Below are positions 27,493 to 30,249 of a stretch of DNA of 64,000 nucleotides, one piece after another; position 1 is the first letter of the stretch; each line of letters begins with the position of its first letter. Source of the stretch: a virus; IMG/VR virus record IMGVR_UViG_3300005578_000001, positions 1-64,000 of that record; one strand, given 5' to 3'. Below the pieces are notes generated by a model that made no database searches, was not told the DNA's origin, and worked only from the letters and a program-made list of their open reading frames with translations. The position numbers and the translations under genes were made by a program.

Positions 27493-27531
27493 AAAGGCCG
27501 GGAATGCCCAGATCCCGGCCTTTTGGTTTTT
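27493..27531 (+). terminator. Intrinsic terminator
   Basis: AAAGGCCGGGA...TCCCGGCCTTTT followed by a T tract. Confidence 0.8.
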
Positions 27532-27621
27532 GTGATGTTGGTTTACTGTTTAGGCACCTTGTAGGCGGCATGGCCCCACAAACCAGCCGCCCGTCCTTCA
27601 TCGCTTAATGGAGCACGCTTT

Positions 27622-27828
27622 ATGGCACGCATGTTAACGAGTCTTCAATGGTGGGAGATTACCGGCTACTGTGTTGCGCTAGGTCTAGTTGTTTTAGCTG
27701 CTTTAATGGATAAGATCGGCGGGCCGGACTCTGCGTCGGAACGCCTAAGCGGCATAATTGCGACTCTCGGCATCCTCGGATTCCTTGTAGTCTTCACAAT
27801 CGGTTTTGTGCTCAGGTTTGTGATCTAG
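27622..27828 (+). CDS. Small two-TM membrane protein
   Basis: GGAG RBS; two hydrophobic helices. Confidence 0.6.
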   Translation: MARMLTSLQWWEITGYCVALGLVVLAALMDKIGGPDSASERLSGIIATLGILGFLVVFTIGFVLRFVI

Positions 27829-27863
27829 GGACAAGGGCCGTGCCAGATTTTCAATTCCAGATT

Positions 27864-28358
27864 TCAGATTAGGACACTACCCAGTTTCGGTTTCGGCAGT
27901 GACTTCACCGGGGCGAGGTCAATAGCCAGTTCTTTCTTTGCGTCCCGGCCCGCTTGACTGAGCTTAGCAGCTACTCCCATAGCATGATCGTATCGAGCCT
28001 GTCCGATGCCATCTAAGCGCTCACGTGGCACAATAGCCAAGCGCCGGAACGCGCGTCCTGTATGCCGGATTCCCTGTTTGATGTTTCGCTCCGACTCTTT
28101 CAGGCGATCAGCCGGATTGAGAAACTTCAATCCGATTCCATGGATCCACTCACTGTCGATGTCGCGATCGTTGCGGAGTCTGCGCCGCCATGCGTTCACC
28201 ACACCGTAATAGCGATTGGTTTTAGCGGGGATTTTTATTAACGCTTCGAACTCTGAGTGACGGATCACTTGATCTTCATCCGGCGTGGGAAATGCCTCTT
28301 CCAGCTTGCGCACGTCGGGGCCGTAGGGAATGCCATTTACTAACTGAGCAGGTTTCAT
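27864..28358 (-). CDS. Hypothetical protein, last gene of the Cas7-like operon
   Basis: GGAG RBS, ATGA coupling; basic, wHTH-like N-terminal half and helical C-terminal half. Confidence 0.75.
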   Translation of the reverse strand: MKPAQLVNGIPYGPDVRKLEEAFPTPDEDQVIRHSEFEALIKIPAKTNRYYGVVNAWRRRLRNDRDIDSEWIHGIGLKFLNPADRLKESERNIKQGIRHTGRAFRRLAIVPRERLDGIGQARYDHAMGVAAKLSQAGRDAKKELAIDLAPVKSLPKPKLGSVLI

Positions 28359-28525
28359 TTCTTGTTTCTCCGATCCTTCATAAGCTCGGAAATAGATCCT
28401 TTCATTTCCACAGGTTTCTTTCTTCCGGCAAGTTGTTTGTTTACCTGAAGCGAATAGGTCAAAGCGCCCTTATGCTTACCATGCTTCCAGAATGCGCTGG
28501 ATTTCTGTCGCGTTTTGATTCTCAT
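28355..28525 (-). CDS. Small basic ORF directly after the repeat array
   Basis: ATG 10 nt after the last hairpin; stop overlaps the next ATG; no clear RBS. Confidence 0.4.
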   Translation of the reverse strand: MRIKTRQKSSAFWKHGKHKGALTYSLQVNKQLAGRKKPVEMKGSISELMKDRRNKK

Positions 28526-28534
28526 GGCAGTTAT

Positions 28535-28940
28535 ACGCCATTGGCGTCGTTGCTTAACCTGTCCGGGCCTTCCACGCTCCGCAACGCATAGCCGTGGATC
28601 GCTTAGCAATATAGAGCAAACTAATTTCAGGCCATTGGCCCCCATGACGTACCGAGCCCAGTAGGGCCGCGCAATGCACCGCTATAGCAATGCTCCGCGT
28701 TGGGAAAATCTATAATTGCAATAGGCCATAGGCCCCTAGCCATGCACGGCCTTACTACGGTGTGCCGCTCGCAGCCGAGCAACTGCCGGGCGCAGGCTGG
28801 CCCTGCTCTACGCAGAACTCTATATGATTTCAAAATGGACCATTGGTCCCCCCGCGCTGCGTTACCAACCTAGCCGCACAAAGGGCTACAGTGCCGGGCC
28901 GCGCGTCGCCACCCGAGGATAGCTCTGCTATACGGAGCCG
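28535..28940 (-). ncRNA. Four-unit array of NGY-NN pentamer repeats, each unit closed by a CC-WAT-GG hairpin (putative guide RNA array)
   Basis: Hand phasing shows 5-nt periodicity; hairpins at 28837-28849, 28724-28734, 28630-28640, 28535-28547; AT-rich linkers. Confidence 0.8.
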
Positions 28941-28947
28941 AAAACTT

Positions 28948-29607
28948 CTATTCTTCAACGGTTGCCTCAAACATTCCAAACTGCCCCGGCGTAGGGCTTC
29001 CCGGTCGCCAGTTTCCTAACCCCTTGTAGCGACCTGCTAATTCAAGGATCTGTCGGAGAATCTTGACTGTAATCGCCTCATCCATGATGACGATCCGCCC
29101 CTCAGTGGCCCACTGCTCGAAGCGTGGCCGCACTCGTATATGCTTACTTTGACCTACGCGCACGCGCTTGACGAACAACGAGAATCCAAGCTTCCGCACC
29201 CCTTCGATATGTTCGACAAAATGAGCCTTGTCCTTAAGATCGTTGATATCAGACATAGAGATCGTCGCGCCTGAGCCATTAATGAAGAGAGGCCAGTGAA
29301 ACTCAGGGCATAACAAACCGCTTTGCGATTGTGCCTTAAAAGTCTTCTTCCCCGATCCGGTCGGCACCTGAGCCCCGCCTTCCATCAGACAGCGCATGAT
29401 ATATTCACTTGGAATGGTAACGATTTCCCCGTCCGTATTCAGCGAGCCAATCCAGCGAAACGGCGGCGTTCGATCGTCGCCAGCTTTCGACTTCGCTTTA
29501 TTCTCAGGTTCTTTACGCCACTCGTCCATCGCGTCAGACCACTCGATATTATCAGCGTGCATGAGTAGGGGCGTTAAGCCCTTAATGGTAACTTTTACGT
29601 TTAACAT
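28948..29607 (-). CDS. Stand-alone Cas7/RAMP-like protein (Vipr-like)
   Basis: VTIKGLTPLLMH first strand, IPSEYIMRCL, RVRPRFEQW, C-terminal Gly loop AGRYKGLGNWRP....GQFGMF. Confidence 0.75.
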   Translation of the reverse strand: MLNVKVTIKGLTPLLMHADNIEWSDAMDEWRKEPENKAKSKAGDDRTPPFRWIGSLNTDGEIVTIPSEYIMRCLMEGGAQVPTGSGKKTFKAQSQSGLLCPEFHWPLFINGSGATISMSDINDLKDKAHFVEHIEGVRKLGFSLFVKRVRVGQSKHIRVRPRFEQWATEGRIVIMDEAITVKILRQILELAGRYKGLGNWRPGSPTPGQFGMFEATVEE

Positions 29608-29619
29608 AGACCGTTTCCC

Positions 29620-29901
29620 TTAGAGCCCAAAAACCTCACGGGCTTTTTCCAATCGTTGTAGATAGCCGCCATTACGTTTGCCTGCTTTAGAAGCCCAGCG
29701 AAACCGATGGCCGGGGAATACTTCAGCTTGGTCTACCAGTCCCGCTTTAACCAGCTTAGCGGTATGCGCACGTACCGTTCGCGCTGAAATAGCGCCTTCG
29801 ATTTGCTGCGCGATCTCCGAGTTGGTCAGCCACTTACTTTCGTCGCCGCGCAGGACTAAGTAAACTTTTAATTCGTGGATTGAGACTTCGCTTTTCTCCA
29901 T
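29620..29901 (-). CDS. Winged-helix DNA-binding protein, leaderless first gene of the Cas7-like operon
   Basis: WLTNSEIAQQ...ISARTVRAHTAKLVKAGLV; ATG 7 nt after the -10 box. Confidence 0.75.
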   Translation of the reverse strand: MEKSEVSIHELKVYLVLRGDESKWLTNSEIAQQIEGAISARTVRAHTAKLVKAGLVDQAEVFPGHRFRWASKAGKRNGGYLQRLEKAREVFGL

Positions 29902-29908
29902 ACGGCGG

Positions 29909-29937
29909 AGTATGGCATGGTGAGGCGAGGCAGTCAA
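29909..29937 (-). promoter_or_regulatory. Sigma70-type promoter of the Cas7-like operon
   Basis: TTGACT-17-CATACT. Confidence 0.65.
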
Positions 29938-29954
29938 CTATCAATATGACCGTA

Positions 29955-30000
29955 AACAAAAGAGACGCCACCCCACCCGCAGCGTCTCTCTCAATCAGTA
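29955..30000 (-). terminator. Intrinsic terminator, copy 2 of the direct repeat
   Basis: Minus strand GAGAGACGC...GCGTCTC-TTTTGTT after a TGA. Confidence 0.75.
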
Positions 30001-30249
30001 AACCTGATACCACTCACACAAGGGACACATCACTACTCCACAGTTGTACATGAAATCCTTGTGGTAGGCATCGCAGTAGGTAGTGGAGTGACTTTGATAG
30101 CATTGATAAAGCAACGCCTGGTAGTCCTGAAAACAAGTTGACTGGCAGTTAGTGCAGAACTTATCCATACACTTAGCCGGAGGCGCGGAGCTGAAGAATA
30201 CGCTCAAGCTCAAGAGCATGAGCATGGCCATGAGAATTAGTTTGCGCAT
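29995..30249 (-). CDS. Small secreted Cys-rich protein
   Basis: AAAGGA RBS; signal peptide; 9 Cys in about 60 aa. Confidence 0.7.
   Translation of the reverse strand: MRKLILMAMLMLLSLSVFFSSAPPAKCMDKFCTNCQSTCFQDYQALLYQCYQSHSTTYCDAYHKDFMYNCGVVMCPLCEWYQVY

What the first reader, a model, noticed from the sequence alone, without database searches (positions are those of the whole stretch)
28535..29607. Stand-alone Cas7/RAMP-like gene followed by a hidden array of 5-nt-periodic NGY-NN units: candidate non-CRISPR RNA-guided system
Seen: about 8 nt after the stop of the 219-aa gene, the minus strand phases into triplet+dinucleotide pentamers. Unit A (28940-28850): GGC tc CGT at AGC ag AGC ta TCC tc GGG t GGC ga CGC gc GGC cc GGC ac TGT ag CCC tt TGT gc GGC ta GGT t GGT aa CGC ag CGC gg. 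Unit B (28813-28735): CGT ag AGC ag GGC ca GCC tg CGC cc GGC agt TGC tc GGC tg CGA gc GGC ac ACC gt AGT aa GGC cg TGC at GGC ta. Unit C (28699-28641): CGC gg AGC at TGC tat AGC gg TGC at TGC gc GGC cc TAC tg GGC tc GGT ac GTC at. Unit D (28618-28548): TGC tc TAT at TGC ta AGC ga TCC ac GGC ta TGC gt TGC gg AGC gt GGA a GGC cc GGA ca GGT ta AGC aa. The triplet is mostly N-G-pyrimidine and the dinucleotides vary freely. A period of 5 is not explained by coding. Established: RAMP/Cas7 proteins have an N-terminal G..PL strand and a C-terminal Gly loop, both present here, and polymerise along guide RNA with a fixed step. Inference: each unit is a guide bound by one subunit per pentamer, with GY as scaffold and NN as a discontinuous address. 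This matches my recollection of recently reported phage VIPR systems (GGY/NN), which should be verified. Here the first base is relaxed to NGY and no cas1/2/3/5/6 is nearby, so it may be a variant acting by repression against competing phages.
Basis: partly seen in the sequence, partly recalled or inferred. Interest (0 to 1): 0.96.

Follow-up and report, generated by a model that had tools for sequence, protein, structure and literature searches.

The report
Phage VIPR locus with relaxed repeats
This soil phage carries a real VIPR system, a CRISPR-like RNA-guided DNA silencer first described in 2026: a lone Cas7-like protein and four five-base-repeat guide RNAs aimed at transposon and prophage control genes. 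It is another example of a known kind, with one unusual feature, a loosened repeat motif that goes with a single change in the protein's RNA-reading loop.

Summary
Eight bases after the stop of the 219-aa gene, the minus strand carries four units of 5-nt repeats (xGY-NN). This is the strongest period-5 signal in the 81.8-kb genome.

The protein matches the solved SUSP1 Vipr protein by sequence (E 5e-9; profile 7e-16) and folds as a RAMP. 83 of 84 related viral loci carry canonical GGY-NN arrays with the same CCAATGG-type hairpin tail and the same downstream winged-helix gene. This is therefore a VIPR system (bioRxiv 2026), not a new class. This scan has already noted VIPR-type loci in at least 351 other genomes.

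Features specific to this locus:
- **Relaxed first base.** G1 is G in about 41% of repeats, against 81-100% in relatives. This coincides with D-to-N at the G-loop residue that reads G1 in SUSP1 (D177). It rests on one lineage with DNA available.
- **Targets under the published 1-nt-skip rule.**
  - Guide C matches a SWIM-DDE transposase gene in Pyrinomonadaceae genomes (22/24).
  - Guide B matches the HEXXH motif of phage ImmA/IrrE genes (29/32).
  - Guide A matches an XRE gene of an IS1-like transposon (27/36).
  - Guide D has no target.
- **Neighbouring transposon.** A copy of that IS1-like transposon sits next to the locus, and a sister phage's guide matches it at 29/38.

RNA expression and repression are untested.

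The parts
29909..29937 (-). Promoter-like site TTGACT-17-CATACT (TG before the -10) in front of the operon
   Evidence: Consensus scan. This is only a pattern match (3 sites found in the region against 2.0 expected).
29620..29901 (-). Small winged-HTH gene (93 aa from the ATG at 29901) directly upstream of vipr and in the same frame. It may be a regulator or accessory gene, and it is not conserved in the relatives.
   Evidence: Weak Pfam HTH_24/HTH_20 matches below cut-off. No tblastn match in nine related loci. The sister phage has a different small gene at this position.
28948..29607 (-). vipr: 219-aa RAMP (Cas7-like) protein with G-loop GLGNWRPG. N199 stands in place of the G1-reading Asp.
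   Evidence: PDB 36pp_D SUSP1 Vipr, E 5.1e-9; profile E 7.1e-16. PHROG 4652, E 2.9e-20. AF2 pLDDT 90.6. Foldseek hits are all Csm3 / type VII Cas7 / Cas7-11. 974 homologues found. pN 0.087 against pS 0.78 versus the sister phage.
28837..28939 (-). vrRNA A: about 18 xGY-NN repeats (two 1-nt deletions) plus tail GG + GGACC-AAT-GGTCC
   Evidence: homologous to unit 1 of the sister phage. Best target is the C-terminal codons of an XRE gene of an IS1-like transposon: 27/36 in L120 and 25/36 in L116 and L119.
28723..28817 (-). vrRNA B: 15-16 repeats (one 1-nt insertion) plus tail hairpin GGCC-TAT-GGCC
   Evidence: 86% identical to unit 2 of the sister phage. Target is the RFTxAHELGH (HEXXH) codons of ImmA/IrrE Peptidase_M78 genes: 29/32 in viral contig L157 and 23/32 in L140.
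28629..28704 (-). vrRNA C: 11-12 repeats (one 1-nt insertion) plus tail GG + GGGCC-AAT-GGCCT
   Evidence: Target is a SWIM + DDE_Tnp_1 transposase gene in Pyrinomonadaceae MAGs: 22/24 at two independent copies (L121 = L137; L139 = L149) and 21/24 at a third (L141). Null maximum 18; other skip rules 16-18.
28535..28613 (-). vrRNA D: about 12 repeats (one short repeat) plus tail CG + ACGCC-AAT-GGCGT. Target not found.
   Evidence: Best matches are within the null range. The exact-pattern scan of viral contigs found nothing.
28355..28525 (-). Possible 56-aa basic ORF between the array and the next gene; its stop overlaps the next gene's start (ATGA). Status uncertain.
   Evidence: Read from the sequence. 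Absent at this place in the sister phage. No family match for the longer 96-aa reading.
27864..28358 (-). Conserved 164-aa partner gene: winged-helix-like N-terminal domain plus two long helices. Likely the vap (accessory, DNA-binding) gene of this clade.
   Evidence: Found directly after the array in all nine related loci tested (alignment). AF2 pLDDT 85 with an H-E-H-H-E-E topology. Foldseek matches are weak (E >= 0.03), mostly to winged-helix/HTH DNA-binding domains. No Pfam, PHROG or PADLOC name.
21618..27882 (.). Neighbouring 6.3-kb IS1-like composite transposon. It is not part of the VIPR system but is related to its targets. It carries the XRE genes 26546-26821 (-) and 27212-27457 (+), which resemble the targets of guide A and of the sister phage's guide 1.
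   Evidence: 22-nt inverted repeats, 95% complementary, and a 9-bp direct duplication. About 7.4 kb extra DNA at this place compared with relative G002. Transposase 89% and XRE 94% identical to a Pyrinomonadaceae MAG locus. DDE_Tnp_IS1 match. The sister phage's guide 1 matches 27380-27435 at 29/38.

Best explanation
The locus is a VIPR (Viral Interference Programmable Repeat) system in a complete 81.8-kb phage of soil Acidobacteriota (probably Pyrinomonadaceae). The operon runs on the minus strand: promoter, small wHTH gene, vipr, four vrRNA genes, then a winged-helix accessory gene. By homology to the SUSP1 system, one Vipr protomer binds each 5-nt repeat. It flips out the xGY triplet and presents the two NN bases. 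The NN bases of successive repeats pair with double-stranded DNA that reads NN-x-NN-x (one base skipped per repeat), and binding blocks transcription. The recovered targets are wobble-aligned, conserved codons of a SWIM-DDE transposase (guide C), ImmA/IrrE metallopeptidases of prophage-type switches (guide B) and an XRE regulator of an IS1-like transposon (guide A). So the phage most likely uses the system to silence mobile elements resident in its host. This subclade differs from described systems in that the first base of the triplet is no longer kept as G. That goes together with Asp-to-Asn at the G-loop residue that hydrogen-bonds G1 in SUSP1 Vipr. The sequence homology, the arrays, the tails and the in-silico target matches are shown here. 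RNA production, RNP assembly, DNA binding, repression and the causal role of N199 are inferred.
For: (1) Protein. phmmer hit to PDB 36pp_D 'SUSP1 Vipr protein', E 5.1e-9; family profile E 7.1e-16. The equivalents of H17, R138, W178 and R179 are conserved. AF2 pLDDT is 90.6, and all Foldseek hits with E <= 1e-3 are Csm3/Csm5, type VII Cas7 or Cas7-11 RAMPs.
(2) Family context. 83 of 84 alignable related viral loci have D in the G-loop, and G1 is G in 81-100% of their repeats. Arrays lie directly after vipr, and the conserved 164-aa gene follows in all nine loci tested.
(3) Tail. 'GG + 5-bp hairpin' occurs in all four units. Across 19 distinct tails, 4 of 5 stem pairs change on both sides.
(4) Code. 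Guide C matches at 22/24 (null maximum 18; skip 0/2/3 give 18/16/17). Guide B matches at 29/32 in L157. The sister phage's guide 1 matches this window's XRE gene at 29/38 (null maximum 25; other skips 22-23). Guide 4 of relative L002 hits the same transposase gene at 20/22. Skipped bases fall on codon third positions, as published.
(5) No significant self-target for the four own guides.
(6) Function is kept. vipr shows pN 0.087 against a saturated pS of 0.78 versus the sister phage. G2 and Y3 stay conserved while position 1 varies. Unit B and the sister's unit 2 differ at only 3 of 28 NN bases (hand count on the alignment; whole-unit identity 86%).
(7) D199N is the only substitution diagnostic of the subclade at an otherwise invariant residue (88/88 D elsewhere). 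In SUSP1, D177 reads G1, D177A abolishes silencing, and GGY>AGY guides were among the substitutions that abolish it (papers).
(8) Virus record with terminal repeats, rated 100% complete; no Cas1 match.
Against: There are no expression data: no RNA run holds the locus, so vrRNA production and processing are unshown. Guides A and B reach only 72-75% on species-representative bacterial genomes, below the 80% used in print. B's 29/32 was found after selecting on an exact 8-repeat core, and conserved protein motifs inflate matches to homologues. Guide D has no target. Units A-D contain 1-nt indels, which could impair a one-protomer-per-5-nt filament. The link between D-to-N and relaxed G1 rests on one lineage with DNA available (this phage and one sister phage seen in two samples). 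A second, independent N-bearing protein (P0066) could not be examined. The 164-aa protein's winged-helix assignment rests on weak Foldseek matches. The VIPR type (I-VII) could not be assigned.
Confidence: 0.87

Rival explanations
1. The locus is a decaying VIPR system. The D-to-N change inactivated guide binding (as D177A does in SUSP1), and the arrays are now drifting. That would explain the lost G1 and the 1-nt indels.
For: D177A abolishes silencing in SUSP1, and GGY>AGY guides were among the substitutions that do so (papers). All four units here carry a 1-nt indel or a short repeat. Guide D has no target, and guides A and B match bacterial genomes at only 72-75%.
Against: Drift would erode G2 and Y3 as fast as G1, yet only position 1 is relaxed. 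vipr is under strong purifying selection within the N subclade (pN 0.087, pS 0.78), and at least 13 distinct N-bearing proteins at 81-93% identity are intact. The sister phage's unit 1 has 19 in-phase repeats without indels and a 29/38 target match. Guide C matches at 22/24 and guide B at 29/32. The indels do not shift the target register.
Confidence: 0.08
2. The system is a working VIPR system, but N199 is not the cause of the relaxed first base. The association is a hitch-hiking coincidence within one lineage, and another feature sets the repeat preference, for example the two thumb-strand changes A149V and K150R.
For: Only one evolutionary event could be examined with DNA. Two further substitutions are equally diagnostic of the subclade. 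The residue equivalence is by sequence alignment only.
Against: Positions 149 and 150 vary elsewhere in the family while G1 stays G in the loci with DNA. Position 199 is D in 88 of 88 other proteins compared and in 83 of 84 viral loci. The equivalent SUSP1 residue directly hydrogen-bonds G1 (paper).
Confidence: 0.3
3. The period-5 tracts are not guide RNAs at all. They would be a chance or compositional feature, a coding region, or a CRISPR-type array.
For: An ORF of 96 aa (28355-28645) and several shorter ones overlap the tracts.
Against: The period-5 signal is the genome-wide maximum. Coding sequence gives period 3, not 5. Homologous arrays follow vipr in nearly every relative. There are no long identical repeats of CRISPR type, no Cas1 match and no Rfam match. 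The overlapping ORFs have no family match.
Confidence: 0.01

Closest known systems
VIPR systems (Vipr + vap + vrRNA). The reference is the type II system of Escherichia phage SUSP1 and a Pseudomonas fulva prophage (bioRxiv 10.64898/2026.04.26.720920; structures 10.64898/2026.04.26.720927).
   Same: A lone small RAMP with G-loop and thumb, detectable by sequence against the solved SUSP1 Vipr. Arrays of about 11-18 five-base repeats, each closed by an invariant 3' tail. A predicted DNA-binding accessory gene. A phage genome with no Cas1 match. Targets that obey the 1-nt-skip rule with skipped bases on codon third positions. No self-target.
   Different: The first triplet base is not kept as G (about 41% G against 81-100%). 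The G-loop Asp that reads G1 is Asn. The tail is a 13-nt hairpin with a CCAATGG-type core instead of the SUSP1 pseudoknot. The gene order is vipr - array - vap rather than vipr - vap - array. The repeats carry occasional 1-nt indels. The host is Acidobacteriota. The paper's Methods mention 'YNNNG' repeat variants, so a relaxed G1 as such is already in print. The VIPR type could not be assigned here.
SUSP1 VIPR against the F5 satellite recombinase (bioRxiv 10.64898/2026.10.15.759431).
   Same: A guide sits on conserved, amino-acid-determining codon positions of the mobility enzyme of a competing element, with wobble positions skipped. Here the corresponding sites are a conserved stretch (VVDHAAMPYIPF) inside the DDE_Tnp_1 domain of a transposase and the HEXXH motif of ImmA/IrrE.
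   Different: The targets here are insertion-sequence or transposon genes and a prophage-type switch protease, not a satellite's serine recombinase. Nothing is tested experimentally here. One transposon of the targeted kind is already inserted next to the VIPR locus.
Class 1 CRISPR-Cas backbone subunits (Cas7 / Csm3 / type VII Cas7).
   Same: RRM-based RAMP fold, glycine-rich loop, thumb, and one subunit per fixed step of guide RNA. These are the top structural matches.
   Different: No CRISPR repeat-spacer array and no Cas1 match. No other cas gene (cas2/3/5/6/8/10/11) was noticed near the locus, but only Cas1 was searched. The step is 5 nt with three bases flipped out, instead of 6 nt with one. 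The guide is genetically fixed, not acquired.

Membership tests
VIPR system | Vipr protein: a RAMP homologous to described Vipr proteins, with RRM core, G-loop and thumb | tested here: met
   PDB SUSP1 Vipr E 5.1e-9; profile E 7.1e-16. AF2 pLDDT 90.6, and Foldseek returns only RAMPs at E <= 1e-3.
VIPR system | Residues that hold G2 and Y3 and part of G1 (SUSP1 H17, R138, W178, R179) | tested here: met
   H17, R160, W200 and R201 align to them. R160, W200 and R201 are invariant and H17 is nearly invariant in the family alignment.
VIPR system | G-loop Asp that hydrogen-bonds G1 (SUSP1 D177) | tested here: not met
   N199 here. D in 83 of 84 related viral loci and in 88 of 88 more distant proteins compared.
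VIPR system | vrRNA made of tandem GGY/NN (YNNGG) pentamers, or a related consensus | tested here: met
   Four runs of 11-18 xGY-NN pentamers, with a lag-5 signal. The strict GGY form is not met: G1 is G in about 41% of repeats here (hand count of the phasing; caught only one run here) and 32% in the sister phage. The 'related consensus' YNNNG named in the paper's Methods is met.
VIPR system | Invariant structured 3' tail after the repeat tract | tested here: met
   GG + 5-bp hairpin in all four units and in relatives, with compensatory changes at 4 of 5 pairs. The relatives' tails were selected for pairing, so the 100% paired figure is by construction. The shape differs from the SUSP1 pseudoknot.
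VIPR system | Minimal locus with an accessory (vap) gene, no CRISPR array and no cas genes, mostly in viruses | tested here: met
   A conserved 164-aa winged-helix-like gene follows the array in 9 of 9 loci. The record is a complete virus. No Cas1 match in the genome; other cas families were not searched.
VIPR system | Targets follow the 1-nt-skip rule (NN-x-NN), often wobble-aligned in coding sequence, with no self-target | tested here: met
   Guide C 22/24, guide B 29/32 and the sister phage's guide 29/38, found only with skip 1. Own guides show no significant self-match. This is in silico only.
VIPR system | vrRNAs are expressed as roughly 100-nt RNAs and co-purify with Vipr; the RNP represses transcription | not testable with these tools
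   No RNA run is listed for this DNA; this needs bench work.
VIPR type II (SUSP1 / P. fulva clade) | Placement in the Vipr phylogeny, pseudoknot tail, vap1 | tested here: inconclusive
   Sequence similarity to SUSP1 Vipr is significant but distant (about 60-75 residues aligned). The tail is a simple hairpin. vap1 could not be compared, and the type tables were not available.
CRISPR-Cas class 1 (Cas7 as part of an effector complex) | CRISPR repeat-spacer array and other cas genes at the locus | tested here: not met
   No such array in the locus. No Rfam family match, CRISPR repeat families included. No Cas1 match.

The most novel reading that the evidence does not exclude
A single Asp-to-Asn switch in the Vipr G-loop has naturally converted a strict GGY-reading protein into one that needs only GY and tolerates linkers of 2-4 nt. 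This phage lineage uses that looser scaffold mainly to silence host transposons that invade phage genomes. One such transposon has inserted beside the locus, and its XRE copies match the own guide A only at chance level (23/36) and the sister phage's guide at 29/38. If true, the residue is a ready-made handle for relaxing scaffold constraints in engineered VIPR guides, and VIPR would be an anti-transposon defence of phages.
Probability: 0.35. Interest if true: 0.6.

Novelty: new member of a known kind. Interest (0 to 1): 0.42.

Why it matters
VIPR was described only in 2026 and is being studied as a programmable DNA binder and as a possible ancestor of CRISPR. This locus adds a well-resolved example from soil Acidobacteriota phages. 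It has a clean natural contrast: sister clades 79-87% identical in Vipr differ in one invariant G-loop residue and in whether the first repeat base is kept. That gives a direct, cheap test of how the scaffold is read. It also extends the recovered target list to transposases and ImmA-type switch proteases, and it shows a transposon of the targeted kind sitting beside the system. As a class it is already known, and this scan has met it many times.

Tried and rejected
- **Contig look-up closed.** The contigs of the N-bearing proteins P0002-P0014 and of the independent P0066 could not be fetched, so the D/N-versus-G1 test has one lineage only.
- **G-loop pattern scans.** A degenerate DNA pattern for K-G-L-G-N-W-R-P-G found only the sister phage in viral contigs. 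In metagenome contigs it found the same phage again plus four chance hits.
- **P0066 in viral contigs.** Searching with P0066 gave only D-bearing relatives.
- **blastn against GenBank phages.** The locus gave no match.
- **Family libraries.** Pfam and PADLOC give no name for Vipr or the 164-aa protein. Rfam gives no match in 27800-30100.
- **Own guides against other genomes.** Scanning the own genome and four related phage genomes gave nothing above shuffled-guide controls.
- **Exact-pattern scans of viral contigs.**
  - The guide A core gave two hits, both chance.
  - The guide D core gave none.
- **XRE genes.** No relatives were found in viral contigs or in four related phages.
- **Vipr in host genomes.** Vipr was not found in five Pyrinomonadaceae genomes that carry the targets.
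- **Sequencing runs.** No RNA holder is listed.
- **Six antisense RGY-NN pentamers at 29902-29931.** No tail hairpin follows them and they are not conserved in the sister phage. This was left unresolved.
- **Coding explanation for the tracts.** Considered and rejected: the period is 5 and the overlapping ORFs have no family.
Full report
**What is there**

The window is part of an 81,812-bp virus record with direct terminal repeats, rated 100% complete. On the minus strand, a promoter-like site at 29937-29909 is followed by five elements:
- a small winged-HTH gene (29620-29901; weak Pfam matches);
- the 219-aa gene (28948-29607);
- four repeat units (28939-28535);
- a possible 56-aa ORF (28355-28525);
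- a 164-aa gene (27864-28358).

**Checking the observation**

A period-5 model phases the four units into xGY-NN pentamers. Units A, B, C and D have about 18, 15-16, 11-12 and 12 repeats. Each unit ends in two bases (GG, or CG in D) plus a 5-bp stem with an AAT or TAT loop.

GY autocorrelation gives z=5.5 at lag 5 and z=4.4 at lag 10 against shuffles. Over the whole genome and both strands, the seven best 400-nt windows for a period-5 GY signal all overlap this array.

**Identity of the protein**

Pfam has no match. phmmer against PDB chain sequences finds 'SUSP1 Vipr protein' (36pp_D) at E 5.1e-9. A profile of 32 family members raises this to 7.1e-16. PHROG 4652 (no function assigned) matches end to end.

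An AlphaFold2 model (pLDDT 90.6) matches only RAMPs in the PDB: Csm3/Csm5, type VII Cas7 and Cas7-11. The family is large, with 974 homologues at E <= 0.001.

The three VIPR preprints define the class as follows:
- a lone Vipr RAMP;
- an accessory vap gene;
- vrRNAs of 9-16 GGY/NN repeats with an invariant 3' tail;
- recognition of double-stranded DNA by the NN bases, with one target base skipped per repeat;
- transcriptional silencing of competing mobile elements.

**Comparative evidence**

I fetched 86 related viral loci. Nearly all show textbook GGY-NN arrays directly after vipr, closed by the same kind of hairpin. A homologue of the 164-aa gene follows in all nine loci tested.

That protein models as a winged-helix-like domain followed by two long helices. 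Its structural matches to winged-helix and HTH DNA-binding proteins are only weak. This fits the 'predicted DNA-binding' vap genes in print, but it is not proven.

The tail hairpin keeps pairing through changes on both sides at four of five stem positions. The relatives' tails in that alignment were chosen for being paired, so only the variety of stems counts as evidence, not the 100% pairing.

**What is special here**

In SUSP1 Vipr, G1 of each GGY is read by H17 and by D177 of the G-loop, and D177A abolishes silencing. GGY>AGY guides were among the substitutions tested, and perturbing the GGY motif abolished silencing.

The alignment puts N199 of this protein at D177, inside an otherwise identical G-x-G-(D/N)-W-R-P motif. 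The Asn is shared by 13 proteins at 81-93% identity and, independently, by P0066 at 62%. It is D in 83 of 84 related viral loci.

Between the N subclade and its nearest D relatives, only three positions are diagnostic. Position 199 is the only one that is invariant elsewhere.

I counted the first base only in pentamers that satisfy G2 and Y3, so the count is unbiased for position 1:
- every D locus has G1 = G in 81-100% of repeats;
- the sister phage (L009, the same phage as L091) has 32%;
- this phage has about 41%, by a hand count of the phasing, because indels break the automatic run finder here.

The subclade is not decaying. Versus the sister phage, vipr shows pN 0.087 against a saturated pS of 0.78. 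The sister's unit 1 is 19 clean in-phase repeats. Unit B and the sister's unit 2 are 86% identical. By my hand count on that alignment, position 1 is the most variable class (4 of 14) and the NN bases differ at only 3 of 28.

The link between Asn and relaxed G1 is therefore specific and mechanistically sensible.

**Targets**

I concatenated the NN bases of each unit with one wildcard between them.

- *Own genome.* None of the four own guides has a match beyond shuffled-guide controls. This agrees with the absence of self-targeting in print.
- *The sister phage's guide 1.* It matches 27380-27435 of this window at 29/38 (null mean 22.6, maximum 25; other skip lengths 22-23). The site is the antisense strand of the last codons of an XRE gene (27212-27457), with the skipped bases on codon third positions.
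- *Where that XRE gene sits.* It lies inside a 6.3-kb element bounded by 22-nt inverted repeats and a 9-bp duplication. The element carries an IS1-type transposase. Relative G002 has about 7.4 kb less DNA at this place.
- *The element in host genomes.* A scan of species-representative genomes found relatives of the XRE genes almost only in Pyrinomonadaceae and other Acidobacteriota MAGs. One locus has a transposase 89% identical and an XRE 94% identical to this element's. This also names the likely host.

On those loci:
- **Guide A** (homologous to the sister's guide 1) matches the same XRE site at 27/36, 25/36 and 25/36. It matches the copy in its own genome at only 23/36.
- **Guide C** matches a SWIM + DDE_Tnp_1 transposase gene at 22/24 in two genomes and 21/24 in a further copy (null maximum 18; other skips 16-18).
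- **A canonical guide of relative L002** hits the same transposase gene elsewhere at 20/22.
- **Guide B and the sister's unit 2** match the HEXXH codons of an XRE-ImmA/IrrE gene next to such a transposase, at 23/32 and 22/28.
- **An exact scan for eight repeats of guide B** in viral contigs returned eight loci. Most encode R-F-T-x-A-H-E-L-G-H, and one matches the whole guide at 29/32 in a Peptidase_M78 gene that follows an XRE gene.
- **Guide D** has no target.

The 1-nt indels in units A-C do not shift the target register. This suggests the extra or missing base lies in the flipped-out linker.

These matches use the code and the wobble alignment already in print, including a guide on a mobility enzyme's conserved core. 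Conserved protein motifs inflate matches to homologues. A and B stay below the published 80% line on bacterial representatives. I therefore rank them as follows: guide C is solid, guide B is good, guide A is suggestive, and the idea of a general anti-transposon role is a hypothesis.

**Comparison and novelty**

The locus meets every testable defining feature of VIPR except two: the G1-reading Asp and the strict G at repeat position 1. The paper's Methods already name 'YNNNG' repeats as an alternative form. I could not assign a VIPR type. The tail is a plain hairpin rather than the SUSP1 pseudoknot, and the gene order differs.

This scan has already noted VIPR-type loci in at least 351 other genomes. 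So this is a new member of a known kind, with two points worth a specialist's attention:
- the natural Asp/Asn contrast, which can be tested directly by residue swaps;
- the transposon genes among the targets, with a related transposon inserted at the 3' end of the accessory gene.

**Limits**

- Nothing about RNA, protein binding or repression is shown.
- No RNA run holds this DNA.
- The wHTH gene and the 56-aa ORF are not conserved, and their roles are unknown.
- The six antisense pentamers over the promoter are unexplained.

Noticed in passing
window 21618-27882: A 6.3-kb IS1-like composite transposon with 22-nt inverted repeats (95% complementary) and a 9-bp target duplication. Its right end overlaps the last codons of the VIPR accessory gene. 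The cargo includes two XRE genes, a HigB/HigA/SecB-like module and an Ntn-type protease pair. Relative G002 has about 7.4 kb less DNA here. The same transposase (89%) and XRE (94%) occur in a Pyrinomonadaceae MAG.
   Followed up: partly
window 27380-27435 (and 26568-26623): vrRNA 1 of the sister phage (L009; Vipr 87% identical) matches the antisense strand of the resident transposon's XRE gene at 29/38, and its paralogue at 26/38. This phage's own homologous guide A matches the paralogue at only 23/36. The resident copy may be an escape variant, or the guide may have diverged after the insertion.
   Followed up: partly
window 29902-29931 (+ strand): Six clean RGY-NN pentamers lie on the strand opposite to the operon, over its promoter-like site and start region. 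No tail hairpin follows, and they are not conserved in the sister phage. The meaning is unknown; they could be a remnant, a decoy or chance.
   Followed up: partly
L002:3996-4050 against L149:2127-2158: A canonical GGY guide of a related phage (Vipr 79% identical) matches the same SWIM-DDE transposase gene that guide C targets, at a different site (20/22). Another L002 guide matches near an XRE locus of a Pyrinomonadaceae chromosome (20/24).
   Followed up: partly
window 28355-28525 (-): A 56-aa lysine/arginine-rich ORF lies between the array and the accessory gene, with an ATGA stop-start overlap. Relative L002 appears instead to encode a CxxC-type zinc-finger peptide at that place (my own reading of the sequence, not checked with a tool).
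   Followed up: no
window 28818-28835, 28705-28722, 28614-28628 and L009:3775-3799: The short spacers before the units share an A/T-rich motif ending in AGTTYTG-like bases, conserved between this phage and its sister. It could be a processing or start signal for the individual vrRNAs.
   Followed up: no
whole record: The likely host is Pyrinomonadaceae (Acidobacteriota, Blastocatellia). Relatives of the transposon genes and the guide targets occur almost only in MAGs of that family. The DNA comes from a rhizosphere metagenome.
   Followed up: partly
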